A stretch of DNA of 13,689 bases from Verrucomicrobiota bacterium (lineage in GTDB: Bacteria > Verrucomicrobiota > Verrucomicrobiia > Limisphaerales > CANJSG01), in assembly GCA_038209745.1 (NCBI GenBank), contig JBBQXJ010000106.1:1-13689 (forward strand), given 5' to 3'. Positions 1-13,689 of this stretch are shown here, in pieces (position 1 is the first letter of the stretch; every line of letters begins with the position of its first letter). A program made the position numbers and the translations under genes. The notes beneath the pieces are model-generated. The model saw only the letters and a list, made by a program, of their open reading frames with translations, did no database searches and was not told the DNA's origin.

Positions 1-1260
1 GGCCCACAACAAGGGCGTGGTCTCGACGAAGTTCCCGCTGTTGCCGACCAGGTCCCAGAACTTCGCGAACCGGCGCAGCCGTTGCATGGTCGGGAAATCG
101 AGGTCGCGGTTGCAGAGGATTTCATACGGCGGCGTGGACCCGTAGCGCATCGCGAACGCGGCGTCGTGCCGGATGATGGGGGTGCCGCGCAGCCGCTTTA
201 GGATGCCCACTTGGATCTCCTGCGGCTGCAGCGCCACCAGTCGATCAAACCCTTCGGCGAAGCTTTCCAGCGTCTCTCCCGGCAAGCCGGCGATGAGATC
301 CGCATGGATGTGGACGCCGGTCTCGCCACGCAGGAAGGCGAAGTTGTCGGCCAGCTTCTCGAAGTTGTTTCGCCGGCTGATGTGCTTGGCGACTTCCGGG
401 TTGAAGGTCTGGATGCCGACCTCGAACTGGAGCGAACCCGGCGGAAACTTCGCGATGATCTCCCGGAGCTGTTCCGGCAGGCGATCGGGAACCATCTCGA
501 AGTGGACGAAGAGCCCGGGCGACATCCGTTCGAGGAAGAACTCCAAGATCCGGCGGCTGACCGCGAGGTTCAGGTTGAAGGTCCGATCCACGAACTTGAA
601 CTGCTTCAATCCGCGATCAAGCAGCCGCTGCATCTCGGCGAGAAACGGTTCCAGCGGCGTCGATCGCACCGGGATGTCGAGGGATGAGAGGCAGAATTCG
701 CAGGTGAACGGACAGCCGCGCGACGCCTCCACATAGACCACGCGATGCCTCAAGTCGTCGTCCGAGTAGAGCTCGTAGGGCAGCGCGATCCGGTCGAAGG
801 TCGGGAGCTCGGCGGGGATGATCTTGGGGAGGGACAAGGCCGGGTGCCGGATGCCGGATGCCGGATCAATTGGTTCCAGCAGCGTGCGACAGGCTTCGGC
901 GAACTTCAGGTCCGCTTCGCCGGTGATGACGTGGTCGGCGAGGCGCACGATCTCCTGTTGGTCCACTTCGTAGCTCACCTCCGGGCCGCCGAGAATGACC
1001 GTCACCCCGGGACGAATCCGTTTGAGCGCGGCAACCAGTTCCGTGGTCTCGACGACGTTCCAGATGTAGACGCCGAGGCCGATGATGCGGGGATTCTGCG
1101 CGAGCAGGATCTCGGCGATGTCGAGCGGCCGCTGGTTGATGTCGAATTCCAGGAGGCAGGCCCGCGGCCGCAGGTCGCCGAGATTCGCCAGCAGGTAGCG
1201 CAGGCCGAAGGCGGCGTGGATATACTTCGCGTTGAGGGTGCTGAGGACAATGTCCGGCAT
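1..1260 (-). CDS. B12-binding domain radical SAM protein (3' end beyond window edge)
   Basis: ATG at 1260-1258 reads [30 protein letters not shown], a cobalamin-binding-domain-type N-terminus. It later gives [25 protein letters not shown] (CxxxCxxC, ~665-740) and [18 protein letters not shown]. The frame is open to position 1, so it is absent from the ORF track. Confidence 0.93.
845..865. repeat. (TGCCGGA)x3 heptamer tandem repeat in radical SAM interdomain linker
   Basis: Three perfect units at 845-865 plus an imperfect GGCCGGG at 838-844. Encodes PASGIRHP on the minus strand; 21 nt preserves the frame. Confidence 0.7.
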
Positions 1261-1693: not shown

Positions 1694-1711
1694 CTGTCAT
1701 TGGCCTGTCAC
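1694..1711 (+). promoter_or_regulatory. Pho box (PhoB/PhoP-type direct repeat)
   Basis: CTGTCAT-TGGC-CTGTCAC: two consensus heptamers at 11-bp spacing just upstream of the AraC-like gene. Confidence 0.75.
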
Positions 1712-1725
1712 AGAAGCGCGTTCAA

Positions 1726-2481
1726 ATGCGCACGATGTTGGCACAAATGGTCGTCGAGGATTTCCGTCTGGCCGAAGGCCTGGAAATGACCGGCGCGGAC
1801 GATGGGTGGATGTGCGCGCAGTTGCGCGAGGGGTTGGCCTATCGGTTGGGAGCGGACACCGCCGAGGATCTGGCACCGGGCGGAGTCGTGCTCCTGTTGC
1901 CGGGCAACCGGGTTGTGTTGCGTGCCAGTCAGCTGCGTCCATGCATCATCCGTCGTTTCGAGATGCGGGTGGAGTCGATGGCTGGAATCCTGACGATCGA
2001 GGAGGAAGCGGCGCTGAGGTGCTTGGAGGAGGCGAAGGCGCGGACGGGCTGGACGTTGTCCCCCGAACATCCGGCCGCTTTGGAGCTTTCATCCGTCTCC
2101 GCAGGATTCGGCCGGTCTCCGGGACAACGCATCCAGCTCCTGGGTTTGGCGCTGGATATCGTGGGACCCCTGCCCAATTTCGAGGACGACTCGGACGCTG
2201 CCTCCTCCCCCACGGCGACGGAACGGTTCCGGAGGCTCATGAGCGAAATTCCCGAGGGCGAACTGATGCAAAGCTCCCCCGACGACTTGGCCCGCCGCTG
2301 CCGCTGCACGGTCCGTCATTTGAACCGGCTCTTCCGCCAAACCTACGGTGTGGCTTTGCGGGCAAAGCTGCGCGATCTGCAGCAGCGGAACGCGGTCCAG
2401 CCTCAAGCCAGGCCGGGACTGCAAGTCGAATCGCGTCCGCTTGCACCGAGCCAAGACCCCGATACAGTCGCGCGAAGATGA
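1726..2481 (+). CDS. AraC-family-like transcriptional regulator with only one HTH
   Basis: SPDDLARRCRCTVRHLNRLFRQTYGVALRAKL is an AraC first HTH, preceded by a cupin-like N-terminal region. No second HTH is visible. Start uncertain (TTG 1654; ATG 1726, 1735 or 1747). Confidence 0.75.
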   Translation: MRTMLAQMVVEDFRLAEGLEMTGADDGWMCAQLREGLAYRLGADTAEDLAPGGVVLLLPGNRVVLRASQLRPCIIRRFEMRVESMAGILTIEEEAALRCLEEAKARTGWTLSPEHPAALELSSVSAGFGRSPGQRIQLLGLALDIVGPLPNFEDDSDAASSPTATERFRRLMSEIPEGELMQSSPDDLARRCRCTVRHLNRLFRQTYGVALRAKLRDLQQRNAVQPQARPGLQVESRPLAPSQDPDTVARR

Positions 2482-2512
2482 CGCTCGAAGTGATTCGGCA
2501 AGCGGAGCGCCG

Positions 2513-2959
2513 GTGAACCCGATTTACGCTGTGCAACTGAACGCAGACATTTGGAACGTCCTACATGACGGCACCCTCCTCGAAATCTCCGGCGACGTTC
2601 CGGGCGACCTCCGGCTCTCGATCGAGATCGACTACCTCCGGGAGCGATTTCCGGAACCGGGCCGGCGAATCGTGCTGACCCTGCTTCGCTGCACGGCCTT
2701 CAGCTATCAGCCCGACGAAATCGACGGACCTTTGATCGACTTTCCCGCGATCTCTGGCGAAAAGCCGCAGATACTCCGAGCCGAGGACTGGACGGACCCC
2801 AACCAAGTCTACTGCGTGTCGGGAACGATTCGGGTCGAGGCTGCGGAGTTCTCAATCGCGCTGGACAGCGGGCGTCCGGTCTCCCTCGAAGAGCTATGCG
2901 CCGCGTCCGAGGCCTACTGGGCCGAGTGGAGGGCAAAGGCACCGGATTCGACGCCGTAA
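2513..2959 (+). CDS. Hypothetical protein (~148 aa, acidic)
   Basis: GTG at 2513 with GGAG at 2504-2507. Globular-looking sequence IWNVLHDGTLLEISGDVPGDLRLSIEIDYLR...ASEAYWAEW. The ORF-track extension to 2348 overlaps the regulator and is unlikely. Confidence 0.7.
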   Translation: MNPIYAVQLNADIWNVLHDGTLLEISGDVPGDLRLSIEIDYLRERFPEPGRRIVLTLLRCTAFSYQPDEIDGPLIDFPAISGEKPQILRAEDWTDPNQVYCVSGTIRVEAAEFSIALDSGRPVSLEELCAASEAYWAEWRAKAPDSTP

Positions 2960-2991
2960 GTGTCGTGTTGGCCGTCTCCGGACCACCGGGA

Positions 2992-3042
2992 GTGTCCCGA
3001 GGTTGTTGCCCGCTTGTTACAGACGCGTCGTTCGGGCGTCAC
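2992..3042 (+). promoter_or_regulatory. Degenerate Pho-box-like array, five units at 11-bp period
   Basis: GTGTCCC (2992), TTGTTGC (3003), TTGTTAC (3014), GCGTCGT (3025), GCGTCAC (3036). All share nnGTYnn in exact phase upstream of the DUF3450 gene. Confidence 0.5.
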
Positions 3043-3064
3043 GTTCGGCCTCCAAGTTCGCTTG

Positions 3065-3835
3065 GTGCGAACAGCAGTCCTATTGCTTTGCCTGGCGGCG
3101 CCGGTCTTCGGTCCGGTCGTGGGCCGGGCAGCCGATGAAACCGCACCCTTGGCGGAGGCCCGGGAGACGGTGGCCCAATGGGTCCAGACCCGCCAGCTGA
3201 TCTCCGGAACCAAGACCGGCTGGGAATCGGACCGCGAGACATTGGAGCAGACCAAGGCTCTGTTCGAACGCGAGCTGGCGCAGGTCCGGGAAAAATTCTC
3301 CAAGGTCTCGACCCACAGCTCCGTGGCCGACCAGGAGCGTGAAACTGCGGAGGCCCGGCTCAAGCGACAAGTCGACGCGCTGGAGGCTGGCGCCGCGTTG
3401 GCCGCTCAGCTGGAGGACAAGGTCCGCTCGGTTCTTCCTCTCTTGCCCGCCCCGCTTTTGGCGACCCTCAAGGCGGTGACCGACCGATTGCCGGCGGATT
3501 CCTCCACTACCAAGGCCGCCGTGACCGAGCGTCTCCAAACCGTCGTGGCGCTGCTCAACGAGGTCGACAAGTTCAACAACGCCGTGACCGTCGCTCCCGA
3601 AAAGCGGGCGAACTCCAAGGGTGAACAGGTCGCGGTGGACACCCTGTATCTCGGCCTGGCCGGAGCGTGGTTCGCCGATTCCACCGGTGAGCTCGCGGGT
3701 TCCGGCACCCCGACGGCGAAGGGTTGGCAGTGGAAGATCCAGCCGGAGATCGGCTCGCAGGTTCGCGACGTCTTGGCCGTTTATCGGAGTCAAAGACCGG
3801 CCGCTTTCGTGGCTCTTCCCGCTTCCGTGCAATGA
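3065..3835 (+). CDS. DUF3450 family periplasmic coiled-coil protein (TtpB-like)
   Basis: Signal peptide VRTAVLLLCLAAPVFGPVVGRA, coiled-coil N-half, and ERLQTVVALLNEVDKFN and VDTLYLGLAGAWF motifs. Its stop overlaps the next ATG (ATGA, 3832-3835). Start uncertain (2960, 3062 or 3065). Confidence 0.85.
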   Translation: MRTAVLLLCLAAPVFGPVVGRAADETAPLAEARETVAQWVQTRQLISGTKTGWESDRETLEQTKALFERELAQVREKFSKVSTHSSVADQERETAEARLKRQVDALEAGAALAAQLEDKVRSVLPLLPAPLLATLKAVTDRLPADSSTTKAAVTERLQTVVALLNEVDKFNNAVTVAPEKRANSKGEQVAVDTLYLGLAGAWFADSTGELAGSGTPTAKGWQWKIQPEIGSQVRDVLAVYRSQRPAAFVALPASVQ

Positions 3836-5331
3836 ACGCTTCGCCGATGAATCCTTCTCGTCCTCCTTCTCGGACACCGTGCTTCGAGAAAGCGAACGCC
3901 GCCGGGAACGAGACGTTCTTGGGCCGGATGGGTCAAGGGGTGTCGAAGGCGGCCGCGATCATCACCTTGTTCTTGATGCCCTTCGCCGCATCCGCCCAAG
4001 AACTCCAGACCCTCGCCGCCGGAGCCAAGTCCGATCTCGCAAGGGCGCTGACCGAGCTGGCCGAGGTGCGCCAGCAGATCGAAACCCAGAAGCTGCCACT
4101 CGCTCGCGAGGTCAACGGTCTTGAGCAGCAGTTGATTGATCAAAAGGCCGCGCTCCTGAAGGCCGAACGGTTCCAAGAAAACCAGCTCGTCGAACTCAAC
4201 GCGCTCAAGAACCAGGTCAAAGCTCGTGGCGAAGAGGTCAAGTATGTGGGCGCGTTGCTGTCCGAGTATTCCCGCGCCTTCCGCACCCGCACCCATGTGG
4301 CGGAGCAGGCCCGGATCAAACCCGTTCTCGACGCCTACGACGCCGCGACCGCTTCGGTCGATTTGAGCGAGGCCGCGCGGATCGTGAAGCAGGGTGAATT
4401 GCTGGAGGCCGCTTTGAACCGCGTGCAGTCGATCGCTGGTGGCGAACTGTTCGAGACCTCGGTGCTTGGTCTCACGGGCAAGATGGAGAAGGGCAAAGTC
4501 GCGTTGATGGGACCGGTGGCCATCTTCGCCAGCAGCGAGACGCCGCTGGTCGGTGTCGTGCAGCTGGAGCTGAACAAAGCGGATCCGAGCGTGTTTCCCC
4601 TACCCGACTCGATGGCCTCCGGGGCGCGCGAGTTGGCCACCACGGGCGAGGGTTCCATCGATCTAGACTCGACCTTGGGCGGCGCGATCAAGGTCGCTTC
4701 GATCCGCGAAAGCTTTTGGGAGCACATCATGAAGGGGGGCGTGGTCATCTATCCGATGATCCTGCTGGCGGTGGCCGCGATCTCGGTTGGCCTCATCAAG
4801 TGGATCCAACTCTCGAAGGTCCGGCTGGCCTCCGGAACGGATCTTCAGGAAGTGCTCGACGAGCTGGAGAAAGGGGACCGCGCGGCCGCCAAGAAGCGCG
4901 CTGCAACGATCTCCGGACCTGCCGGCGAGATGCTCGTCACGGCGGTGGAGCACGTCGACGAGAAGAAGGAATACATCGAGGAAGTGCTCTACGAGAAGAT
5001 GCTGGCGACCAAGCCGCGTCTCGAATCGCTCCTGCCCTTCATCGCCCTGACCGCCGCCGCTGCGCCGCTGCTCGGTCTGCTCGGAACCGTCACCGGCATG
5101 ATCTCGACCTTCAACCTGATCAGCATCTTCGGCACCGGCGATCCGAAGACGATGTCCTCCGGCATCTCGGAGGCGCTGATCACCACGGAGTGCGGTCTCT
5201 ACATCTCGATCCCCGCGCTGATGCTCCACGCCTTCCTGAACCGCAAGGCCAAGGGAGTGCTCGGGAGCATGGAGCAGACGGCGGTCGGATTCATCAACGG
5301 ACTCCCCAGCCGGGAGTTCGAACCGCGCTGA
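3832..5331 (+). CDS. MotA/TolQ/ExbB proton channel protein with large periplasmic N-terminal domain (TtpC-like)
   Basis: Signal peptide ending FAASA-Q, coiled coil, then three TM segments with APLLGLLGTVTGMISTF and SGISEALITTECGLYISIP. Start could alternatively be 3847 or 3928. Confidence 0.93.
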   Translation: MNASPMNPSRPPSRTPCFEKANAAGNETFLGRMGQGVSKAAAIITLFLMPFAASAQELQTLAAGAKSDLARALTELAEVRQQIETQKLPLAREVNGLEQQLIDQKAALLKAERFQENQLVELNALKNQVKARGEEVKYVGALLSEYSRAFRTRTHVAEQARIKPVLDAYDAATASVDLSEAARIVKQGELLEAALNRVQSIAGGELFETSVLGLTGKMEKGKVALMGPVAIFASSETPLVGVVQLELNKADPSVFPLPDSMASGARELATTGEGSIDLDSTLGGAIKVASIRESFWEHIMKGGVVIYPMILLAVAAISVGLIKWIQLSKVRLASGTDLQEVLDELEKGDRAAAKKRAATISGPAGEMLVTAVEHVDEKKEYIEEVLYEKMLATKPRLESLLPFIALTAAAAPLLGLLGTVTGMISTFNLISIFGTGDPKTMSSGISEALITTECGLYISIPALMLHAFLNRKAKGVLGSMEQTAVGFINGLPSREFEPR

Positions 5332-5345
5332 ACGAAGGAACGACC

Positions 5346-5657
5346 ATGAACGCAGCCTTCTTCGAAAAGATCCTCAAATCCTGGACCGACGGCGGCTGGA
5401 CCATGGTCCCCATCGGTCTCGTAGCGCTGGTCATCTACACGACCGGTGCCCATCTGCTTTGCTACCTCTCGGCCCGCGGCCACAAAAAGATCACGGACCG
5501 GCAGATCAACGATTGGATCAAACATCCCGAACGTTCCGAGGGCGAAGTGGGCGACATCATCCGCTACACCCAGGACAACGTCGAAGACCTCGACGCGATC
5601 GCGAACCGTTTCGCGGAGGTCAACGCCGGCAAGGTGCCCGAGGTCGATCGCCGCCTT
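5346..5657 (+). pseudogene. exbB: Second MotA/TolQ/ExbB protein, N-terminal ~104 aa only
   Basis: RBS GAAGGA then MNAAFFEKILKSWTDGGWTMVPIGLVALVIY...KVPEVDRRL. It ends just before the expected APLLGLLGTV helix; the same frame continues as junk to 6233. Confidence 0.8.
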
Positions 5658-6972
5658 CGCTCCCCTTCCCGCCGACCATCCCTTGGCCGAGATCTGGAAC
5701 GATCCCGACTTCGTGAAGCGTCTCTTCGGCAGCTACGGCACCTTGAGCGAGCAGGAGCCGAAGCTGACGGCCGAGGAGCAGGCGTTCTATCGCGACACCG
5801 TGGTTCCGCTGGTCCGCGACGATCCGACCAAGGCGATCAAGGAACTGGAAGCCAGGCTGAAGCCCGGCGGCAGCGCGGCCTTCGACTACACGCTGGGCAA
5901 TCTCTTCTTCCAGACCGACGACCTGACCAACGCGGTGAAGTTCTTCGAGCAGGCCGTGGAGAAGTTTCCCGACTATCGGCGCGCCCAGAAGAACCTCGGA
6001 TTCGCCCTGGTCCGCTCCGGCCAATTCGACGCGGCGGTCAAGCCCCTCAGCAGGACGCTTTCTCTCGGGGGAGCCGACGGCAAGGTCTTCGGATTGCTCG
6101 GCTACGCGCACATGAATCTCGGCCGCCATCTCTCCGCCGAATCCGCCTACCGGCAGGCGTTGCTCTACGAGCCCGACAGCGTCGACTTCAAGCTCGGCGT
6201 GGTGAAGTGCCAGATCGCCTTGTCGGAATATGACGCCGCGCTGGCCATGCTGGATGAGCTCGTCGGCCAGTTCCCCGGTCGCGAAGCGCTCTGGGCGCTC
6301 CAGGCGAACGTCTACATCCAGAAAGAGCAGCCGGCGAAGGCCGCGATGAACTTCGAGATCCTCCGCCGCATGGACAAGGCGACGGCGGCGCAGCTCGGGG
6401 TGCTCGGCGATCTCTACCTCTCACAGGACGCGAAGGATCTCGCGCTCGGCGCCTATCAGGAGGCGTTGGCGAAGGATCCGGCCACCGGACTCAAACGGGC
6501 GTTGCGCGCCGCTGAACTCTTGGTCGGCCGGGGCGCTTTCGACGAGGCGAAGCAGCTCTTCGCCAAGATCCGTTCCGCCGATGGCTCCGAACTCGCCGGA
6601 CCCGAAGGACAGAAGCTGTTGAAACTGGAAGCCAAGGTGGCCCTCGCCTCGGGCGACGCCGACGCGGCCATCGCGACCCTGGAGAAGGTCGTGGAACAGA
6701 ACCCGCTCGACGGCGAAGCCTTGCTCTTGGCCGGCGACTATTACGCCCGCCACGACCAGAAGGAGAAGGCGGCGTTCCGTTACGAGACGGCGGCGAAGAT
6801 CAGCGGGTTCGAGGCCGACGGTTTGTTGAAACAGGCCCAGCTCCAAGTGGAGGGGCGGAAGTATGTCGAAGCCGTCGAACTGCTGCGGAAAGCCCAGAAG
6901 ATCAAACCGCGCGACAACGTCGGGCGCTACCTGGAGAAGGTTGAGCAACTGGCTCGCGGCGGTCGGGCGTAG
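5650..6972 (+). CDS. Tetratricopeptide repeat protein (TtpD-like), 5' end missing
   Basis: Many TPR units (FDYTLGNLFFQ...AVKFFEQAVEKFPDY; AQKNLGFALVRSGQFDAAVKPL; ALLLAGDYYAR). Plausible sequence begins at AAFAPLPADHPL with no intact start or signal peptide. The ORF-track start at 5446 is out-of-frame exbB sequence. Confidence 0.85.
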   Translation, partial: AAFAPLPADHPLAEIWNDPDFVKRLFGSYGTLSEQEPKLTAEEQAFYRDTVVPLVRDDPTKAIKELEARLKPGGSAAFDYTLGNLFFQTDDLTNAVKFFEQAVEKFPDYRRAQKNLGFALVRSGQFDAAVKPLSRTLSLGGADGKVFGLLGYAHMNLGRHLSAESAYRQALLYEPDSVDFKLGVVKCQIALSEYDAALAMLDELVGQFPGREALWALQANVYIQKEQPAKAAMNFEILRRMDKATAAQLGVLGDLYLSQDAKDLALGAYQEALAKDPATGLKRALRAAELLVGRGAFDEAKQLFAKIRSADGSELAGPEGQKLLKLEAKVALASGDADAAIATLEKVVEQNPLDGEALLLAGDYYARHDQKEKAAFRYETAAKISGFEADGLLKQAQLQVEGRKYVEAVELLRKAQKIKPRDNVGRYLEKVEQLARGGRA

Positions 6973-7059
6973 GCGATGGCGGACCCGAACCTGACGGCCA
7001 TGCCTGCTCGCAGCTCAACCTCCCATCCGGGGTCCGTCTCCGATGTGGCATCCTTGGGA

Positions 7060-7351
7060 AACCGCAGAGGGAACCAGATGGATGCAGACAAGGATTTCTC
7101 CGCGCTCCGTCTCGAAACGGCAGCCATTGGGGTGGGGCAGGCTTCGAGTTGCCTTGAAACAACAATGACTGACGCAGCCCCTCACCCCTTCCCGATCGGA
7201 TGGGGAGAGGATGGTCGAAGGTTGGGTGAGGGGGCGTCTCCTTTCCACGGTCGGCGACATGTCTGCTACCCGAGAGCATCCACTCAGACCCTGGAGTCAG
7301 GCGGGAAGCCCGACCTGCTCGATCCGTGTCCATCTGTGTCCCTCTGTGGTT
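7060..7351. repeat. ~290-bp segment bounded by 30-bp imperfect inverted repeats
   Basis: 7060-7089 AACCGCAGAGGGAACCAGATGGATGCAGAC vs reverse complement of 7322-7351 AACCACAGAGGGACACAGATGGACACGGAT: 23/30 identical. Each arm has a 10-nt internal period. Confidence 0.65.
7171..7238. repeat. REP-like palindromic element (CCCCTCACCC...GGGGAGAGG...GGGTGAGGGG)
   Basis: CCCCTCACCC (7178-7187) pairs perfectly with GGGTGAGGGG (7224-7233), extended by GACGC/GCGTC. It resembles a widespread dispersed palindromic repeat. Confidence 0.75.
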
Positions 7352-10176
7352 GGAAAAGTCTTCTTCGGGTTTGGTGCGGCATTCTCCTCTTCCTTGGCGC
7401 TGTTTCCACATCCGCCCAGGATTTGGGTTCGGTCAGCGGCTTGGTTGTCAGCGCATGGGATGGTGCTCCCCTGTCCGGGGCGGTCATCACGGTGCGCGGG
7501 ACGACCTTGGCGATCCAGACCGGCGGCGAGGGTCGCTTTCTGCTCAACGGGGTTCCCCTCGGCGACCAGGTTCTTCGCCTTTCCAAATCGGGCTACGCGG
7601 CGGCGACCGTGACGGAGGTCCGGGTGCTGCCCGGCCAGACGACAACGGTGAACGGCAACCTCCGCCCCGAGTTCTACGAGATGGAGGAGTTCGAGGTGAC
7701 GGCGGAGGAGTTCAACGAGCAGACCGCGCAGATCCTCTTCGAGCGCCAGCAATCCGGCTCCCTGTTGGATGCGATCGGGTCGGAACAATTCTCCAAGCTG
7801 GGCGCGAGCGACGCGGCGGAGGCGCTGAGCAAAGTCACCGGAGCCAGCATCGCGGACGGCAAGTTCGCCGTGATCCGCGGTCTGGCCGACCGCTACACTT
7901 CGACGACGTTGAACGGGGTCGATGTGCCGAGCGCCGACCCCGATCGAAAGGCGGCGCAGCTCGACCTTTTCCCTTCCCAGTTCATCGAGCGCATCGACGT
8001 CAGCAAAACCTTTACGCCCGACATGCCGGGCGGCTTCGCCGGTGGTGCGATCAACATCGTGACGAAGTCCTTCCCGAAGGAGTTCTTCTTCAGCATGAGC
8101 GTGGGTGTCTCCTACAACACGCAGTCGAACCTCAAGGACGACTTCGCCATGGGCGACCACGGCTCCACTGATTGGCTCGGTCTCGACGATGGAAAACGCG
8201 AACTGCCCGAGGTCGCGAAGAACACGAACCCCGCCGGGACGACCTCGCCCTTGGGTGAGCCGATCAAGAGCAGCTTCGGCTCGGGCCAGTTTGTGCCGCG
8301 CAACGGTTCCTCTCCTCTGAACGACAGTTTCGCGCTGACGTTTGGCGACACGGTCGAGGTTCTCGGTGGACGGCGTCTCGGCTACTTGGCCGGGCTCAAC
8401 CATAAGAACGACTACAAGGCCCGCGACTTGATCGTCTCGAAATATGAGGTGGTCAAGCGGCCCGACGGTTCCCAGGACCTGCGGCGGTTCGAGAAGCAAG
8501 GAACCGAGGGCGACATCGAATACACTTCGGGTGCGATGGTCGCCCTGGGTCTGGAGATCAGCGAGAACCACACGGTGAAGTTCAACTTTCTCAAGGTGCA
8601 GACCGCCGAGGACGAGGCGGTGCGGGTCGCCGGTCAGGACAAGACGCTGGAGACCGAGCCGGGCATCAGCTACGCGGACCAGTCCACGCTGCATTGGACC
8701 GAGCGAAGCTTCGACTACTTCCAGTTGACCGGGGCGCATGAGTTTCCCTGGGCGGACGACATGCGGTTCGACTGGGCGGCGGCGACTTCCAGCACCACCC
8801 AGGACGAACCCGACCATCGCATCTTCCAGTTCTTTGCCGTGCCCGGAGATCCGGCCGATCCGACCGACGACTACTACGATCCGAACGGCCCGACGCGACC
8901 GGCCCGGCCGACGCGGATCTTCCGCAAGCTGCGCGAGGACAATTCCAGCGTCCGGGGCGACATCACCGTTCCGATCCCCTCCTACAACTCGAAGGACACC
9001 CTCTTCAAGACCGGCTACAACCTCAGCCACTCGAAGCGGGACTACGAGGCGAGGGTCTTCGACATCCGGCCGAATGGACGGAACACCTTCTACACCACGG
9101 GCGACCCGGACGATTATGCCGCGCCGGAGAACTACGGGACCATCGGCTACTACAACTTCCCGGCGAACTTCCGCTACAAGGGCCAGCAGGAGATCGTGGC
9201 GGGTTACCTCATGTCGGATTGGTCCGCGCTGGAATGGCTGCGGTTGATCGGCGGCGTCCGCTACGAAGTCACCTCGATCAACGTCAGCACGATCAATGTC
9301 AGCAAGGGCGGCGAAACCTTTTCGGGAGCGATCAACCAGGCGGATCTGCTTCCCGGCGTGACCGCCACGATTTCGATGCGGAGCAATCTGCTTCTCCGCG
9401 CCGCTTGGTCGCAGACCGTCATCCGACCGAACTACCGCGAGATCAGCCGCGCCGAGGACTACGACGTGGCCAAGGCCCGCACGATCGTCGGCAATCCCGA
9501 TCTACAGATGTCGCAGAGCGAGAACTACGACCTGCGGCTCGAATGGTTTCCAACCCCGGGCGCGATCGTTTCCGTGGGGGTGTTCCTGAAGAAGCTGACC
9601 GATCCGATCGAGCTCGCCTCCCGGGACAACGACGTGACCCTCGTCTACTACCGGAACTACGCACAGGCGGATGTCCGGGGCGTGGAGTTCGAGGTCCGAC
9701 AGGATCTGGGCACGCTTTGGCCGCGCCTTGACGAGCTTTCCGCCGGGTTCAACTACGCCTTCATCCAGTCGACGGTGGACCTGACCCCCGAACAGTTGAA
9801 GAATCGCCGGATCGGGTTCAACGACACCAGCACGACCCGTCCGCTCTACGACCAGCCCGAGTTTGTCATCAATGGCGACATCACCTGGGACCACAAACCC
9901 AGCGGGACTTCCCTGACGCTGTCCGGGGGAGTCGTGGGCCGGCGGCTTGTCCTCGTGGGCTATGCCACACCGGACGAATACGAGGAGCCGACCCCGCAGC
10001 TCGACGTCTTCCTCACGCAGAAGTTGGGCAAGCATTGGAAGATCAAGCTCTCCGCCAAGAACCTGCTCGATCCGGTGCATGAGACCACCCAGGACTACTT
10101 GGCGCTCGGCCGCCATCCGATCGAGAGCTTCCGAACGGGACAGACCTATGGTCTGTCCGTGAGCTACGACTTTTAA
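7336..10176 (+). CDS. TonB-dependent receptor with N-terminal carboxypeptidase-regulatory-like domain
   Basis: Signal peptide ...GILLFLGAVSTSA-Q, then GSVSGLVV...PLSGAVITVRGT domain, TonB-box-like EEFEVTA (7684-7704), plug (DAAEALSKVTG, VIRGLADRY, LDLFPSQFIERIDVSKTFTPDMPGGFAGG), GNPDL motif, and terminal beta-signal YGLSVSYDF. Frame is open from 6976; start uncertain (6976, 7078, 7165 or GTG 7336). Confidence 0.95.
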   Translation: MSLCGWKSLLRVWCGILLFLGAVSTSAQDLGSVSGLVVSAWDGAPLSGAVITVRGTTLAIQTGGEGRFLLNGVPLGDQVLRLSKSGYAAATVTEVRVLPGQTTTVNGNLRPEFYEMEEFEVTAEEFNEQTAQILFERQQSGSLLDAIGSEQFSKLGASDAAEALSKVTGASIADGKFAVIRGLADRYTSTTLNGVDVPSADPDRKAAQLDLFPSQFIERIDVSKTFTPDMPGGFAGGAINIVTKSFPKEFFFSMSVGVSYNTQSNLKDDFAMGDHGSTDWLGLDDGKRELPEVAKNTNPAGTTSPLGEPIKSSFGSGQFVPRNGSSPLNDSFALTFGDTVEVLGGRRLGYLAGLNHKNDYKARDLIVSKYEVVKRPDGSQDLRRFEKQGTEGDIEYTSGAMVALGLEISENHTVKFNFLKVQTAEDEAVRVAGQDKTLETEPGISYADQSTLHWTERSFDYFQLTGAHEFPWADDMRFDWAAATSSTTQDEPDHRIFQFFAVPGDPADPTDDYYDPNGPTRPARPTRIFRKLREDNSSVRGDITVPIPSYNSKDTLFKTGYNLSHSKRDYEARVFDIRPNGRNTFYTTGDPDDYAAPENYGTIGYYNFPANFRYKGQQEIVAGYLMSDWSALEWLRLIGGVRYEVTSINVSTINVSKGGETFSGAINQADLLPGVTATISMRSNLLLRAAWSQTVIRPNYREISRAEDYDVAKARTIVGNPDLQMSQSENYDLRLEWFPTPGAIVSVGVFLKKLTDPIELASRDNDVTLVYYRNYAQADVRGVEFEVRQDLGTLWPRLDELSAGFNYAFIQSTVDLTPEQLKNRRIGFNDTSTTRPLYDQPEFVINGDITWDHKPSGTSLTLSGGVVGRRLVLVGYATPDEYEEPTPQLDVFLTQKLGKHWKIKLSAKNLLDPVHETTQDYLALGRHPIESFRTGQTYGLSVSYDF

Positions 10177-10420
10177 GCCGGAACGTCGCTGGAATTGCTC
10201 TCGCGGCCTGCTTGAGGGTCGCTGTTCTCTCGCCGTCTCCGCTTCTCGATCTCCGGGTTCTCCGAACGACGCCCATCAGCCCACTCTGAGCGGTTGCCCC
10301 TGAGTTCACGGGATCGTCACCTCGTCGAGCTTGGGAGTTAACAGAGGATCCCAAAAGTGACCCAACAACGGCGGTTTGGCTGCGACCCGCTACAACCGTT
10401 TTTAAGCAACCCGAACATCT

Positions 10421-12028
10421 ATGATATTAAAGAACCTATTTGTGCAGCTATCGGCTTCGGCCCTGCTCCTTTCGGGACCGGCGAAGGCTGAAACGGTGGA
10501 TGTCACCACCGATGTGACGGCGGACTCCACGTGGTATGCGACCAACACGTATGTGTTGCGGACGGTGGTGTATGTGGACAACGGGGCGACGCTGACGATC
10601 GAGCCCGGGACGGTGGTGAAGGGCGGGACGAACTCGGCGACGTTGATCCCGAGACAGGACATCCCGAACCTCGTGTCGGCGCTCTGGGTGACGCGCGGAG
10701 CGAAGCTGATGGCGGTGGGGACGGCGCAGAAGCCGATCATCTTCACATATGAAGGGGACGACGTGAACGACGCGAACGACGTTCCGTTCAACACCTCCGG
10801 CCAATGGGGCGGCGTGGTGCTGATGGGCAAGGCGACGCTGAACTCGGCGAAGGACTCGGCGGGCAACGTGGCGACGCCGATCTACGACCAGTTCGAAGGG
10901 ACGACCGGACCGGGAACGAACAACGCGAACCTCTTCGGCGGGACCAACGACACGGACAACAGCGGGACGATGCGGTATGTGTCGATCCGGTATCCCGGCA
11001 ACACGTTCGCGCCCAACTCCGAGCTCAACGGACTGACGCTGGCGGCGCTGGGCAACGGGACCGACATCTCGTATGTGGAGATCCTGAACAGCTCGGACGA
11101 CGCCTTCGAATGGTGGGGCGGCGTGGTCAACACGCATCATCTGGTGGCGGCGTTCTGCGAGGACGACGACTTCGACACCGACCAGGGCTACCGCGGGACC
11201 AACCAGTTCTGGTTCGGGATCAAGCCCATGTGGGCGGGCAGCTCGGACAGCCGGGGCATGGAGACCGACGGCGACCTGAACCAGGGAGCCTCGGGCGAAC
11301 AGCCCAAGAGCCAGTGGTATGTGTCGAACGTGACCCTGATCGGGCGCGGCCAAGGCGACACCGGGTTCGGCGGCGGCGTGGGCTGGAACAGCCGGGACGA
11401 AGCGGCGCCGAACGTGGTCAACGCGTTGTTCAGCGACTTCGCGGTCGGCATCAAGATCGACGTGGACGGGACGAACGAGTTCTTCACCGGCCAGGCGAAC
11501 CTGACCTCGAGCGTCTTCAACGTCGGCAAGGCGACCAACGACGCCAACGCGGCCTACCTGATCACGGACGCGGCGCGGAGGAACGTGGTGCAGGACCCGA
11601 TGTTGGGCGGAGTGGCCTACACGAACGACGCGGCCGGACTGGATCCGCGCCCCCGGACGGGCAGCGCGGCCCTGACCGGCGGCGCGACCGTTCCCGTCGG
11701 CCTGGTCCAGGTGGCCTATCGTGGCGCCTTCAGCGGCCCGGCCGACAACTGGGTCGACGGCTGGACCGCCCCCTCCAAGCTCGGCTTCCTCAAGGCGGCC
11801 ACCGTTCCGGCCATGGCCCCGACGCTGAGCTTCTCGCTGAACGGGGCCAATGCGGTCCTGCGTTTCGCCACCCAGACGGGGGTCACCTACCAGCTCCTCT
11901 CCAAGGAGAACATCGACACGGCATGGTCGAACCTCGGCTCGCCGGTCGGCGGCACGGGCGCCCAGGTCGAAGTGCCCACCTCCTTCAACGCCGCGGGCAA
12001 CCTGTTTATCCAGGTGTTGGTCCAGTAG
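10421..12028 (+). CDS. Secreted beta-helix-like TBDR-partner protein with C-terminal sorting-like domain
   Basis: Signal peptide ending PAKA-E. Motifs TLTIEPGTVVKG, GQWGGVVLMG, FGGTNDTDNSGTMRYVSIRY, ELNGLTL, DDAFEWWGG and EDDDFDTDQGYRG are typical of a family encoded next to this TBDR type. A distinct ~70-aa tail follows an Ala/Pro linker. Confidence 0.88.
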   Translation: MILKNLFVQLSASALLLSGPAKAETVDVTTDVTADSTWYATNTYVLRTVVYVDNGATLTIEPGTVVKGGTNSATLIPRQDIPNLVSALWVTRGAKLMAVGTAQKPIIFTYEGDDVNDANDVPFNTSGQWGGVVLMGKATLNSAKDSAGNVATPIYDQFEGTTGPGTNNANLFGGTNDTDNSGTMRYVSIRYPGNTFAPNSELNGLTLAALGNGTDISYVEILNSSDDAFEWWGGVVNTHHLVAAFCEDDDFDTDQGYRGTNQFWFGIKPMWAGSSDSRGMETDGDLNQGASGEQPKSQWYVSNVTLIGRGQGDTGFGGGVGWNSRDEAAPNVVNALFSDFAVGIKIDVDGTNEFFTGQANLTSSVFNVGKATNDANAAYLITDAARRNVVQDPMLGGVAYTNDAAGLDPRPRTGSAALTGGATVPVGLVQVAYRGAFSGPADNWVDGWTAPSKLGFLKAATVPAMAPTLSFSLNGANAVLRFATQTGVTYQLLSKENIDTAWSNLGSPVGGTGAQVEVPTSFNAAGNLFIQVLVQ

Positions 12029-12041
12029 GCGCTCATTCACC

Positions 12042-12070
12042 CCGGAGGCCGTCCGTTTAGCGGCCTCCGG
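12042..12070 (+). terminator. GC-rich hairpin (terminator or mRNA-stabilising stem)
   Basis: Perfect 10-bp stem CCGGAGGCCG / CGGCCTCCGG with a 9-nt loop, 13 nt after the stop. No U-tract follows. Confidence 0.6.
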
Positions 12071-12229
12071 ACTCAACCCCGAATCGGGATCGGCGGGTCT
12101 GGACAAATAATCCGTGTGTCGTCCAGATCCGCCGTTTTGGTGTCCGGAATCGACGGAAGATTCCGATCTAAAGGGAGATCCAGAGGCGCTCTCAACCCAT
12201 GGGCGCAGCCGAATTGGATCCGGTTTGGC

Positions 12230-12269
12230 CTGTCACAGGATTGTTACAATGTCTCCGCGAGCCTGTCAC
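12230..12269 (+). promoter_or_regulatory. Pho-box array upstream of porin
   Basis: CTGTCAC (12230)-AGGA-TTGTTAC (12241) plus an in-phase CTGTCAC at 12263 (+33). TTGGCCTGTCACAG at 12225-12238 is identical to 1700-1713. Confidence 0.78.
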
Positions 12270-12308
12270 AACGGTCTTCCAGCTTGGGAAAGTTCTAAAC
12301 GACACATC

Positions 12309-13661
12309 ATGCAAATCAAACCTGCCTATTTACTGGTTCTGGCCGCCGCCGGCTTCATTGCCGTCTCTGCGGGAGCTCTGAACTCATACGCGCAGTCTGC
12401 CGATGCTTTGATCGACAAGCTCGTCGACAAAGGGATCCTGACAGTCGACGAAGCCCAAGGTCTCCGCGACGAGGCCGACAAGGACTTCACCCGGACTTTG
12501 GCCTCCAAGAACGGCATGCCGGAATGGGTGAAGACGATGAAGCTCAACGGAGACTTTCGTGGCCGCTACGAGGGGTTTTACGGCAACGAGAACGGCTACA
12601 CGGACCGCAACCGCCTGCGCTACCGCCTGCGCTTCGGGATCGTGGCGGGTTTGACCGAGTCCTTCGAGGTCGGGTTCCGGCTCGGTTCGGGAGACGCGAA
12701 GGCGACGGGAGGACTGATCGACCCGATCTCCACCAACCAGACGCTGGACAACAACGGGGCCAAGAAAGGCATCTACATCGACCAGGCCTACCTGCGCTGG
12801 AAAGGGCTCAACACGCCTGATTTCAACGGCTCGGTCACGTTCGGCAAGAGGGAGAACCCGTTCGTCTATTCCGACATGGTGTTCGACCCGGACTACACGC
12901 CCGAAGGACTGGCGGGGACGTTGTCCTACCGGGTGAACGAGGCCCACAGCCTGTCTTTCACCGGGGCCGGCTTCGCGTTGAAGGAGCTGGGAGGGGACAG
13001 CGCCGACAGCTACATGTTCGGCGCCCAGATGCGCTGGGACGCGGTGTGGAGCCCCAAGCTCGCGACGTCCGTCGGCGCGGGGATCCTGGCGATCGCCAAC
13101 GACCAGGCGCTGACCGACGGCCAGGTGCCGAACATCAACGTGGGCAACACCCGCAACCCCTTTACCAAGAACCTGGCCTACAACATGAACCCGTTCGTGT
13201 TGGACGCGGCCGCGACCTACACGGCGGAGACATTCCCGCTCTATCCCGGCCCGTTCCCGATCCGGTTGGCCGCCGACTTCATGCAGAATCCCGGCGCGCC
13301 CAGCGACCGGAACCGCGCCTGGTCCGGCGGCATCACCTTCGGCAAGTCGGGAAAGCAGGGCACCTGGGAGATCTCCTACCGCTACAAGGAGCTCCGATCC
13401 GACGCCTGGTATGAGGAGGTGGTGGACTCGGACTTCGGCGCCTACTACGCGCTGAACCTGGATCCCAACAGGGTCACCCCCTCCAACGACTACGGTGCCG
13501 GCACCAATGTGCGCGGCCACATCATCAAGGCCAACTACTCACCCTACGACTTCCTCACCTTCGGCGTCACCTGGTTCTTCACCGAGGCGATCAACGAGAT
13601 CCCCCGCGGCACCGACAGCGCGATCCAGCGTCTGCAGGTCGACGCAATGGTGAAATTCTGA
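12309..13661 (+). CDS. Putative outer-membrane porin (Porin_5-like)
   Basis: Signal peptide MQIKPAYLLVLAAAGF..., N-terminal DALIDKLVDKGILTVDEA helix, LNGDFRGRYE, RNRLRYRLRFG, STNQTL, DPDYTPEG and GTNVRG motifs, and terminal LQVDAMVKF beta-signal. Confidence 0.9.
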   Translation: MQIKPAYLLVLAAAGFIAVSAGALNSYAQSADALIDKLVDKGILTVDEAQGLRDEADKDFTRTLASKNGMPEWVKTMKLNGDFRGRYEGFYGNENGYTDRNRLRYRLRFGIVAGLTESFEVGFRLGSGDAKATGGLIDPISTNQTLDNNGAKKGIYIDQAYLRWKGLNTPDFNGSVTFGKRENPFVYSDMVFDPDYTPEGLAGTLSYRVNEAHSLSFTGAGFALKELGGDSADSYMFGAQMRWDAVWSPKLATSVGAGILAIANDQALTDGQVPNINVGNTRNPFTKNLAYNMNPFVLDAAATYTAETFPLYPGPFPIRLAADFMQNPGAPSDRNRAWSGGITFGKSGKQGTWEISYRYKELRSDAWYEEVVDSDFGAYYALNLDPNRVTPSNDYGAGTNVRGHIIKANYSPYDFLTFGVTWFFTEAINEIPRGTDSAIQRLQVDAMVKF

Positions 13662-13675
13662 CACCCAAGTGTAAC
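13658..13675 (+). promoter_or_regulatory. Possible Pho box for the next downstream gene
   Basis: CTGACAC-CCAA-GTGTAAC at 11-bp spacing, overlapping the porin stop codon. Confidence 0.4.
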
Positions 13676-13689
13676 TTTCCAGGACAAGA

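What the first reader, a model, noticed from the sequence alone, without database searches (positions are those of the whole stretch)
1694..13689. Candidate phosphate-starvation TonB2-type scavenging system: Ttp energiser, TBDR, surface beta-helix protein and porin
Seen: co-oriented DUF3450, extended ExbB, exbB, TPR, TBDR, secreted acidic beta-helix-like protein and porin, with Pho-box-like repeats before several units. Known: the order ttpB-ttpC-exbB-exbD-tonB-ttpD defines Vibrio TonB2/TonB3 systems, mostly studied for iron uptake. Inference: here the same machine serves phosphorus, with a surface protein capturing a P-rich substrate (nucleic acid, polyphosphate or organophosphate) for TBDR import and a porin for Pi. 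I know of no characterisation of this combination in Verrucomicrobiota.
Basis: partly seen in the sequence, partly recalled or inferred. Interest (0 to 1): 0.8.

Follow-up and report, generated by a model that had tools for sequence, protein, structure and literature searches.

The report
Phosphate-starvation importer with swappable TonB motor
These genes encode an outer-membrane transporter, a partner surface protein and their own energy motor beside the phosphate-uptake genes, likely to capture a still unidentified phosphorus source; many close relatives replace the six-gene motor with a TonB-type anchor fused straight onto the transporter, which would make one protein span both membranes.

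Summary
The genes and Pho-box-like repeats are real. The exbB and TPR genes, however, are two broken halves: about 1.5-2.2 kb (exbB 3' half, exbD, tonB, ttpD 5' end) is missing at a 10-bp repeat in this assembly, and four other samples of the organism carry DNA there. The receptor plus beta-helix pair belongs to a widespread, phosphate-induced family known from Caulobacter (ElpS/CC0171), Flavobacterium (Fjoh_0545/0546) and Bacteroides (BT4055/4056). Its cargo is unknown. Phosphate genes flank 18 of 39 long homologous loci against 6 of 2000 control windows, and the Ttp combination also occurs in Alteromonas, so the locus is a variant of a known kind. The unexpected result is in relatives: 33 of 108 same-order genomes that carry this receptor, one in the same genus, match a form whose N-terminus is a TonB/TolA-type membrane anchor (invariant His) and proline-rich linker fused directly to the plug, with no TonB C-terminal domain, behind exbB-exbD and without ttp genes. 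I found no report of such a fusion. It would be a hard-wired, two-membrane-spanning TonB transporter.

The parts
1694..1711 (+). Perfect two-repeat Pho-box-like site, 32 bp before the AraC-like gene
   Evidence: it does not score above 9 bits with the matrix learned from relatives, a weaker site at 1661 does
1726..2481 (+). AraC-like regulator gene, ends after the first helix-turn-helix; relatives of it stand before exbB in several fused-type loci
   Evidence: 31% identity over 213 aa to L034 AraC; no Pfam hit itself; neighbours
3003..3042 (+). Pho-box-like 11-bp repeats before the probable ttpB start
   Evidence: 1 mismatch at 3003; rank 59 of 9.15 million positions; similar sites (2 mismatches or fewer) before ttpB in 6 of 9 testable relatives
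2960..3835 (+). ttpB (DUF3450); true start probably GTG near 3065
   Evidence: PF11932 E 4.6e-25; start inferred from the signal-like sequence and box position
3847..5331 (+). ttpC, ExbB-family protein with long N-terminal extension
   Evidence: PF01618 at residues 360-476 of 494
5346..5656 (+). 5' half of exbB, cut before its proton-channel domain
   Evidence: 27-48% identity to exbB N-termini of 20 intact loci
5647..5656 (+). 10-bp word at which about 1.5-2.2 kb (exbB 3' half, exbD, tonB, ttpD 5' end) is missing
   Evidence: contigs of runs X1, X3, X13, X14 end their match at 5656 and restart at 5647 with other DNA beyond; none shows the joined form; gap size from 20 intact loci
5647..6972 (+). 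ttpD (TPR protein) without its start
   Evidence: TPR families; frame change at the junction
7165..10176 (+). TonB-dependent receptor: signal peptide ending near 7416, CarboxypepD_reg domain, plug, barrel; start codon uncertain
   Evidence: PF13620/PF13715, PF07715, PF00593, PF14905; one of 4 Plug genes in the genome
10303..10320 (+). Degenerate Pho-box-like site in the receptor/beta-helix spacer
   Evidence: rank 8 of 9,152,428 positions with a motif learned only from 20 relatives' spacers; missed by the fixed pattern at 2 mismatches
10421..12028 (+). Secreted beta-helix protein of the ElpS / FII / BT4056 kind (Beta_helix_4), with invariant acidic cluster and a ~70-aa C-terminal domain; no lipoprotein cysteine
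12230..12269 (+). Pho-box-like array (three of four 11-bp repeats) before the porin
12309..13661 (+). Putative porin (Porin_5); a second version with the same promoter opens contig C102, followed by pstS-pstC-pstA-pstB-phoU-phoB-phoR
   Evidence: PF16930 E 1e-44

Best explanation
The locus encodes a TonB-dependent receptor, a secreted beta-helix partner and a Ttp-type motor behind repeated Pho-box-like sites, and it likely works as a phosphate-starvation importer in which the beta-helix protein binds a phosphorus-bearing molecule at the surface and the receptor, driven by its own motor, pulls it in. Steps: (1) PhoB switches on ttpB-receptor, beta-helix and porin-pst units (boxes shown; binding inferred). 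(2) The beta-helix protein reaches the surface and holds an anionic phosphate ester or polymer through a metal bound by its invariant Asp/Glu cluster (fold and cluster shown; metal, ligand and surface location inferred). (3) The receptor imports the cargo using a dedicated motor (gene pairing shown; transport inferred). (4) Phosphate released in the periplasm, or entering by the porin, goes through PstSCAB (linkage shown in relatives; flux inferred). The motor is exchangeable: either ttpB-ttpC-exbB-exbD-tonB-ttpD with an ordinary receptor, or exbB-exbD with a receptor that carries its own TonB-type anchor and linker. In this assembly the motor is broken by a deletion.
For: Receptor next to the beta-helix gene in 42 of 48 testable loci and a core phosphate gene (pst, phoU, pit, phoD) within the fetched stretch in 18 of 39 long loci, against 6 of 2000 random 21-kb windows of this genome. 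Same-genus G002 has beta-helix-porin-pstSCAB-phoU-phoB on one contig; L038 has the whole run from ttpB to phoBR; Alteromonas pBGP9 has phoB-phoR-pstS-(2OG)-beta-helix-receptor-ttpBCD motor. A motif found de novo in 20 relatives' spacers is an 11-bp repeat of Pho-box type; its best site in this genome lies at the DUF47-pit genes. D202, D203, E206, D224, D228 are invariant in 152 of 152 aligned domains. Beta-helix domains are fused to Phytase-like (E 2e-39, 4e-40) and weak PhoX-like domains in three relatives. Published members are induced by phosphate and not by iron limitation. Two motor types alternate at the same spot, which argues that the motor belongs to this receptor.
Against: 21 of 39 long loci show no core phosphate gene; five of them inspected by Pfam have housekeeping neighbours and one Flavobacterium locus sits in a polysaccharide cluster with a GH1 gene between the pair. 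The fold resembles polysaccharide lyases, tailspikes and NosD equally (Z 21-23) and gives no substrate. Purified ElpS had no phosphatase activity and its deletion left phosphatase activity unchanged; BT4055/BT4056 mutants had no phenotype in 519 experiments. Genome-wide, matches with at most 1 mismatch (15) are no more than in shuffled genomes (18-32): only their placement is informative. The window-to-pst join is not on one contig.
Confidence: 0.6

Rival explanations
1. The pair is phosphate-regulated but imports or holds a metal or cofactor needed by phosphate-scavenging enzymes (for example Ca or Fe for PhoX-type phosphatases), or binds phosphate minerals, instead of importing an organic phosphorus compound.
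For: The conserved surface is acidic, not basic; best structural match is the copper-associated NosD (Z 22.6, tied with others); ElpS raised extracellular phosphatase activity without being a phosphatase; an imelysin and a di-haem gene follow the beta-helix gene in L041.
Against: Members are not induced by iron limitation; direct fusion to phytase-like domains fits substrate presentation as well.
Confidence: 0.2
2. The beta-helix protein is a metal-dependent lyase or hydrolase acting on a phosphorylated surface polymer (teichoic-acid-like, capsule or plant wall), and the receptor imports the fragments.
For: Fold of pectate/alginate lyases and tailspikes; invariant acidic cluster like a catalytic site; one homologue lies in a polysaccharide cluster; Lidbury et al. 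suggested glycan binding or hydrolysis.
Against: No sequence match to any solved enzyme; frequent tandem repetition of two to four domains suits an avidity binder; no activity has been reported in the papers read.
Confidence: 0.12
3. The receptor exports the beta-helix protein, as Oar does for PopC, and the motor powers secretion.
For: Near-obligate gene pairing; ElpS reaches the surface without the type II system; a TonB-dependent secretion precedent appears in a search listing (PMC6434023, abstract start only).
Against: Many Bacteroidota-type members carry a type IX sorting domain and so have their own export route while still sitting by the receptor.
Confidence: 0.05
4. In the strain behind this assembly the motor is truly deleted and the locus is decaying (as opposed to a chimeric join in the assembly).
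For: A 10-bp repeat is shorter than the 141-base overlaps seen between this assembly's contigs, so plain repeat collapse is unlikely; the middle piece is not elsewhere in the bin; the AraC-like gene is also shortened.
Against: 4 of 4 other samples carry other DNA at the junction and none shows the join; flanking genes are intact; two porin versions in one bin point to strain mixing. This rival concerns the strain, not the function of the family.
Confidence: 0.35

Closest known systems
ElpS (CC0170) with receptor CC0171, Caulobacter crescentus (PMC2996285)
   Same: Beta-helix family protein next to a TonB-dependent receptor; phosphate link. The window protein is 34% identical over 294 aa (E 8e-35) to the Sphingomonas gene that has the elpS arrangement, protein-receptor-type II secretion genes.
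   Different: ElpS is a lipoprotein beside type II secretion genes; the window protein has an ordinary signal peptide and a C-terminal domain, follows the receptor, and has a dedicated motor. ElpS itself was not compared.
Fjoh_0545/Fjoh_0546 (FII, PUSIV), Flavobacterium johnsoniae (PMC8115612); BT4055/BT4056, Bacteroides thetaiotaomicron (bioRxiv 2023.03.17.533168)
   Same: Receptor followed by partner; Fjoh_0545 has the same Pfam set (PF07715, PF13715, PF14905) as the window receptor; phoBR and a porin nearby; pair reported in 621 genera.
   Different: Lipoprotein partner; no Ttp motor reported; those organisms lack PstSCAB according to the paper. Sequences of these proteins were not compared here.
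TonB2/TonB3 (Ttp) systems of Vibrio and Teredinibacter (PMC6957404, PMC10734418)
   Same: ttpB (DUF3450)-ttpC-exbB-exbD-tonB-ttpD order in intact relatives; a receptor gene in the same unit, as for TonB3.
   Different: TonB2 serves iron (and cellulose-derived sugars); TonB3 function is unknown and its receptor leads the operon. Here the receptor follows ttpD and the unit has Pho-box-like sites.
TonB and TolA (PMC12215075, PMC10907165), for the fused form in relatives
   Same: N-terminal membrane helix with Ser/Ala-x3-His, proline-rich linker, neighbouring ExbB with the Ser-x3-Trp and Pro that dock this motif.
   Different: No C-terminal domain: the linker runs into the plug of a receptor in the same chain.

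Membership tests
Ttp-type TonB2/TonB3 system | First gene is DUF3450 (TtpB) | tested here: met
   PF11932 E 4.6e-25; definition from PMC6957404
Ttp-type TonB2/TonB3 system | Second gene is an ExbB with a long N-terminal extension (TtpC) | tested here: met
   PF01618 only at 360-476 of 494 aa
Ttp-type TonB2/TonB3 system | All six genes present and in order in this assembly | tested here: not met
   exbD and tonB missing, exbB and ttpD partial
Ttp-type TonB2/TonB3 system | Six-gene order in relatives | tested here: met
   Complete with tonB hit in L182-L185, L192, L193 and L025, L026, L056, L066, L125; TonB_C confirmed in L038, L053
Ttp-type TonB2/TonB3 system | Energises transport (iron for TonB2) | not testable with these tools
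   needs mutants
ElpS / FII / BT4056 receptor-partner pair | Partner is a Beta_helix_4 right-handed beta-helix | tested here: met
ElpS / FII / BT4056 receptor-partner pair | Adjacent non-SusC receptor | tested here: met
   TIGR04056 16 bits against cut-off 368; Pfam set as Fjoh_0545
ElpS / FII / BT4056 receptor-partner pair | Sequence homology to ElpS, Fjoh_0546 or BT4056 themselves | tested here: inconclusive
   Those sequences were not obtained; homology shown to a Sphingomonas gene in the elpS arrangement and to Bacteroides and Parabacteroides genes
ElpS / FII / BT4056 receptor-partner pair | Partner is a lipoprotein | tested here: not met
   No cysteine after the signal peptide, judged by eye
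ElpS / FII / BT4056 receptor-partner pair | Induced by phosphate depletion | not testable with these tools
   needs expression data
Pho regulon | 11-bp direct repeats of Pho-box type before the units, shared with phosphate genes of the genome | tested here: met
   the consensus used in 54-56 is recalled
Pho regulon | PhoB binds and activates | not testable with these tools
   needs binding or reporter assay
Polysaccharide lyase / tailspike beta-helices | Right-handed parallel beta-helix fold | tested here: met
   Z 21.3, rmsd 3.0, 278 aligned to Pel9A; tied with many others
Polysaccharide lyase / tailspike beta-helices | Family-level sequence similarity and catalytic residues | tested here: inconclusive
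   No PDB sequence match; residue-level superposition not available
TonB/TolA (fused N-terminus in relatives) | Membrane helix with Ser-x3-His | tested here: met
   His in 73 of 73 aligned; Ser 63, Ala 24 of 87 at -4; motif from PMC12215075
TonB/TolA (fused N-terminus in relatives) | Proline-rich extended linker | tested here: met
   113-154 aa, median 17% Pro in the 87 that passed a filter that itself required 10% Pro; disordered 47-144 in the model
TonB/TolA (fused N-terminus in relatives) | TonB C-terminal domain | tested here: not met
   No PF03544 in 7 of 7 scanned nor in the precomputed domains; no folded domain between anchor and plug
TonB/TolA (fused N-terminus in relatives) | D-box for ExbD | not tested
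   motif described in PMC10907165; not scored

The most novel reading that the evidence does not exclude
This receptor family includes a natural direct-drive TonB transporter: one polypeptide stays anchored in the inner membrane by a TonB-type helix docked on its own ExbB-ExbD motor, crosses the periplasm by a proline-rich tether and continues into the plug and outer-membrane barrel, so the motor pulls the plug with no TonB-box capture step. This two-gene motor plus fused head and the six-gene Ttp motor are interchangeable cassettes, swapped more than once onto the same phosphate-starvation receptor in one verrucomicrobial order; TtpB, TtpC, TtpD and the receptor's N-terminal domain would then be a coupling device that the covalent link makes unnecessary.
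Probability: 0.6. Interest if true: 0.82.

Novelty: new variant of a known kind. Interest (0 to 1): 0.6.

Why it matters
The receptor/beta-helix pair is among the most strongly phosphate-induced outer-membrane systems in Caulobacter and Flavobacterium and is reported from hundreds of genera, yet its cargo is unknown; a dedicated motor gives a clean genetic handle. The fused form bears on a long-standing question, how TonB opens a plug: a permanent link tests whether pulling alone is enough, how the motor is gated without TonB-box capture, how a barrel is inserted while its N-terminus stays in the inner membrane, and what the Ttp accessory proteins are for. It would also be a single-chain target for a structure of a whole envelope-spanning TonB system.

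Tried and rejected
Complex prediction of the receptor barrel (699 aa, plug removed) with the first 300 residues of the beta-helix protein, both cut to fit the size cap: no answer, score 0.01, no evidence either way. No RNA holder listed among sequencing runs. PDB sequence searches found nothing; Foldseek gave no match at E<=0.001. The held Pfam copy and NCBIfam have no model for the beta-helix protein. Sigma-70 promoter and terminator scans were at chance level. The fixed Pho pattern missed the site at 10303 and found no notable box before the receptor gene in 16 loci (best 3-5 mismatches). A profile of the fused anchors gave no significant hit in this genome (a true TonB on C35 at E 1.4), and the Atlas gave only a 0.75 hit for the fused N-terminus: the TonB likeness rests on motif, topology and neighbours, not on a profile score. 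No exact overlap of 15 bases or more joins the window's end to C102 or another contig, and the join could not be checked on other samples' contigs. The metagenome scan did not return this organism's own locus. L094 was checked as a possible PUSIV orthologue and is not one. A planned Pfam survey of all loci without phosphate genes was cut to five loci. Rejected: exbB-TPR as a programmed frameshift or fusion (other samples have DNA between); SusCD; a frameshift or assembly origin for the TonB-receptor fusion (open frames, dozens of genomes, one single-contig genome).
Full report
Setting. The window is the whole of contig C106 of a 4.58-Mb, 140-contig assembly. Named homologues of its proteins are Verrucomicrobiota, so that phylum is inferred.

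Gene content. From 2960 all genes lie on the + strand: DUF3450, an ExbB with a long N-terminal extension, the start of a second ExbB, a TPR protein, a TonB-dependent receptor, a 535-aa secreted protein and a Porin_5 gene. An AraC-like gene (31% identical to a relative's AraC over 213 aa) and a 147-aa unknown gene precede them.

The motor is broken here. The second exbB runs ~103 codons and meets the TPR frame out of register at 5647-5656. In 4 of 4 public runs laid on this stretch, contigs match up to 5656 and from 5647 onward as separate pieces, with other DNA beyond the break where shown, and none shows the joined form. In 20 intact loci the equivalent points are 1523-2221 bp apart, with exbD and, where a query reached it, tonB between. 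The missing piece was not found elsewhere in the assembly. Either a chimeric join or a real deletion at a 10-bp repeat explains it; I put the real deletion at about one in three.

Pho-box-like repeats. With a loosened, recalled Pho consensus, three sites in the window have at most one mismatch, against 0.04 expected. Genome-wide there are 3 perfect and 15 near matches; shuffled genomes give 0-2 and 18-32, so the class is not enriched, but 4 of the 15 fall in this window and C102. Of the other 11 I fetched 8 and scanned neighbours of 7: three lie by phosphate genes (DUF47-pit, a phosphoesterase lipoprotein, a VTC gene) and four do not. Independently, a motif learned from the receptor/beta-helix spacers of 20 relatives (22 tried, window excluded) is an 11-bp repeat of the same type; it ranks window sites 10303, 12230, 13658 and 3003 at 8, 22, 37 and 59 of 9.15 million positions, and the pit site first. 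No box was seen before the receptor gene, which suggests it is read with the motor genes.

Link to pst. Contig C102 opens with the same promoter and a second version of the porin (84% of aligned columns identical), followed by pstS, pstC, pstA, pstB, phoU, phoB, phoR, identified from their translations. The two contigs do not overlap exactly, so the join is inferred. Same-genus G002 has beta-helix, porin, pstSCAB, phoU, phoB on one contig, and L038 runs from ttpB to phoBR.

The secreted protein. It is Pfam Beta_helix_4, has 5649 representatives at 50% clustering and folds as a right-handed beta-helix with pLDDT 96. Structural matches are tied among NosD, tailspikes and polysaccharide lyases (Z 21-23, 8-14% identity). 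Five acidic residues are invariant in 152 of 152 domain alignments from several phyla and E177 in 151, which I read as a metal site.

Neighbourhood survey. Of 607 confirmed matches the tool kept the best 80, giving 69 loci. A receptor was found in 42 of 48 loci with enough flank, and a core phosphate gene in 18 of 39 loci of 16 kb or more; the control was 6 of 2000 random 21-kb windows of this genome, a little low because contigs under 21 kb, C102 among them, were excluded. The loci are kin and not independent. 21 of 39 had no such gene; five checked had housekeeping neighbours and one lay in a polysaccharide cluster. Annotated plasmid records show the same Ttp combination in Alteromonas (beside phoB-phoR-pstS) and Pseudoalteromonas, and the elpS arrangement in Sphingomonas.

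What is known. PMC2996285 (parts 1-3 of 6 read): ElpS, next to receptor CC0171, is induced by phosphate and not iron depletion, is surface-exposed, and is not itself a phosphatase. PMC8115612 (passages): Fjoh_0545/0546 are induced by low phosphate only, in a phoBR cluster; FI-FIII are 31-36% identical to ElpS. bioRxiv 2023.03.17.533168 (parts 1-2 of 3; its supplements are closed and its table is an image): BT4056 is proposed as a lid for BT4055, with few confident contacts and no mutant phenotype. PMC6957404 and PMC10734418 (passages) define the six-gene system and state that TonB3 function is unknown. PMC11208175 (one passage) lists TonB receptors in the Caulobacter PhoB regulon. Earlier notes of this scan describe the same pair seven times, two of them with a dedicated TonB motor (seen after my analysis). 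The window's locus is thus a variant of a described, unsolved system. No paper joining ttpC to phosphate appeared among the 20 listed of 155.

The unexpected part. In relatives the same receptor comes in two forms. Form A (window; L024-L026, L038, L039, L053, L056, L066, L182-L185, L192, L193 and others) has a signal peptide and a CarboxypepD domain behind the ttp genes. Form B (L023, L029-L034, L041, L120, L122, L178, L180, L181, L186-L191) has only exbB-exbD upstream (L178 is cut after exbD), and the receptor begins with a membrane helix and a proline-rich linker joined to the plug. No form B locus examined had ttpB, ttpC or a separate tonB in the fetched stretch. Among the 120 listed hits to the form B N-terminus, 87 passed a strict filter, 12 were form A by their domains, and most of the other 21 show the same anchor by eye. 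The anchor's His is invariant in 73 of 73 sequences that I chose for having the anchor. The model shows helix 11-34, a disordered stretch 47-144 and then plug and barrel, with no TonB C-terminal domain. The Ser-x3-His motif docks on a Ser, Trp and Pro of ExbB in E. coli (PMC12215075, passages); Ser-x3-Trp and a Pro in the last membrane helix are invariant in 12 of 12 form B ExbBs. In 301 genomes of the order, 108 carry the receptor and 33 match from residue 9 or earlier, as the fused form does; I read the N-terminus directly in 16 of these, among them a single-contig genome and same-genus G006, while same-genus G002 has form A. The window's plug and barrel are 56% identical to the form B receptor of G019. 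On a tree of 40 plug-barrel sequences (near-duplicates and several outgroups left out), that receptor sits in a fully supported clade with the window and three form A loci, and one clade for form B is rejected (delta logL 351, AU p about 1e-69; two trees compared, 2000 resamplings), whereas form B ExbBs are 62-73% identical. The simplest reading is one fused head-and-motor cassette exchanged with the Ttp cassette more than once. Searches for such a fusion found nothing relevant: papers (passages of the review PMC11658791) and scan notes. The library lacks most subscription journals, so this is not proof.

Mechanism and verdict. I commit to a PhoB-controlled importer in which the beta-helix protein presents a phosphorus-bearing anion, through a bound metal, to a receptor with its own motor (0.6). 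Regulation is the best supported step, cargo the weakest. The fused form in relatives lifts the interest to 0.6 overall, 0.82 if it proves to be an uncleaved two-membrane protein.

Noticed in passing
window 12078-13689 and G000:C102:1-1652 (L021): Two versions of the porin gene in one bin: promoter and first ~170 codons nearly identical, the rest 68% identical as protein with different loop insertions, and alike again after the stop. Looks like alleles of a variable surface porin from mixed strains; a tandem pair is not excluded.
   Followed up: partly
window 1-141 and G000:C5 end (L144): The window overlaps the end of C5 by 141 bases; that end carries cstA, DUF47 and a Pit phosphate transporter with the genome's best-scoring box, so the phosphate island is wider than the window.
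   Followed up: partly
L031:6412-13011, L041:9905-14803, P0133: Beta-helix domains fused to Ig, Phytase-like (PF13449) and weak PhoX-like domains in proteins of 1600-2200 aa; tandem two- to four-fold beta-helix repeats are common.
   Followed up: partly
L029:12477-13565 and matches in L030, L032-L034, L041, L109, L120, L122, L180, L181, L187-L190: An unnamed lipoprotein-like gene (no Pfam hit) recurs beside fused-type loci and was not seen in Ttp-type loci; a possible extra part of the fused system.
   Followed up: partly
L038:4673-5347, L053:4436-5113: The TonB of the Ttp-type loci has a C-terminal domain but no His in its membrane helix (read by eye), the reverse of the fused form.
   Followed up: no
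window 11810-12025: The ~70-aa C-terminal domain of the beta-helix protein has no Pfam hit but matches the ends of other large proteins of the order; other phyla have a lipid anchor or a type IX sorting domain in its place. It may be a verrucomicrobial sorting signal.
   Followed up: partly
window 7176-7352: Short repeats shared with contigs C30, C55 and C11 lie between ttpD and the receptor's signal peptide, which blurs the start codon.
   Followed up: no
window 2516-2959: 147-aa gene with coding-type GC pattern and no family hit between the AraC-like gene and ttpB.
   Followed up: no
G000:C4:36564 (L140), G000:C1:78892 (L142): Box matches before a beta-propeller plus phosphoesterase lipoprotein and divergent to a VTC-domain gene: further likely members of the phosphate regulon.
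   Followed up: partly
L037, L039, L041, L046, L066: Record titles name Akkermansia, Bifidobacteriaceae or Klebsiella, but the genes group with this verrucomicrobial order; I did not rely on those titles.
   Followed up: no
G176:C40, G128:C99: One fused-type match has a TAG inside and one lies in a 546-aa frame: broken or split copies, not examined.
   Followed up: no
L035:2621-4560: An aminotransferase class V and a HAD hydrolase gene lie between receptor and beta-helix gene next to phoU-pstSCAB; they recall a phosphonate-degrading pair (recalled, not tested).
   Followed up: no
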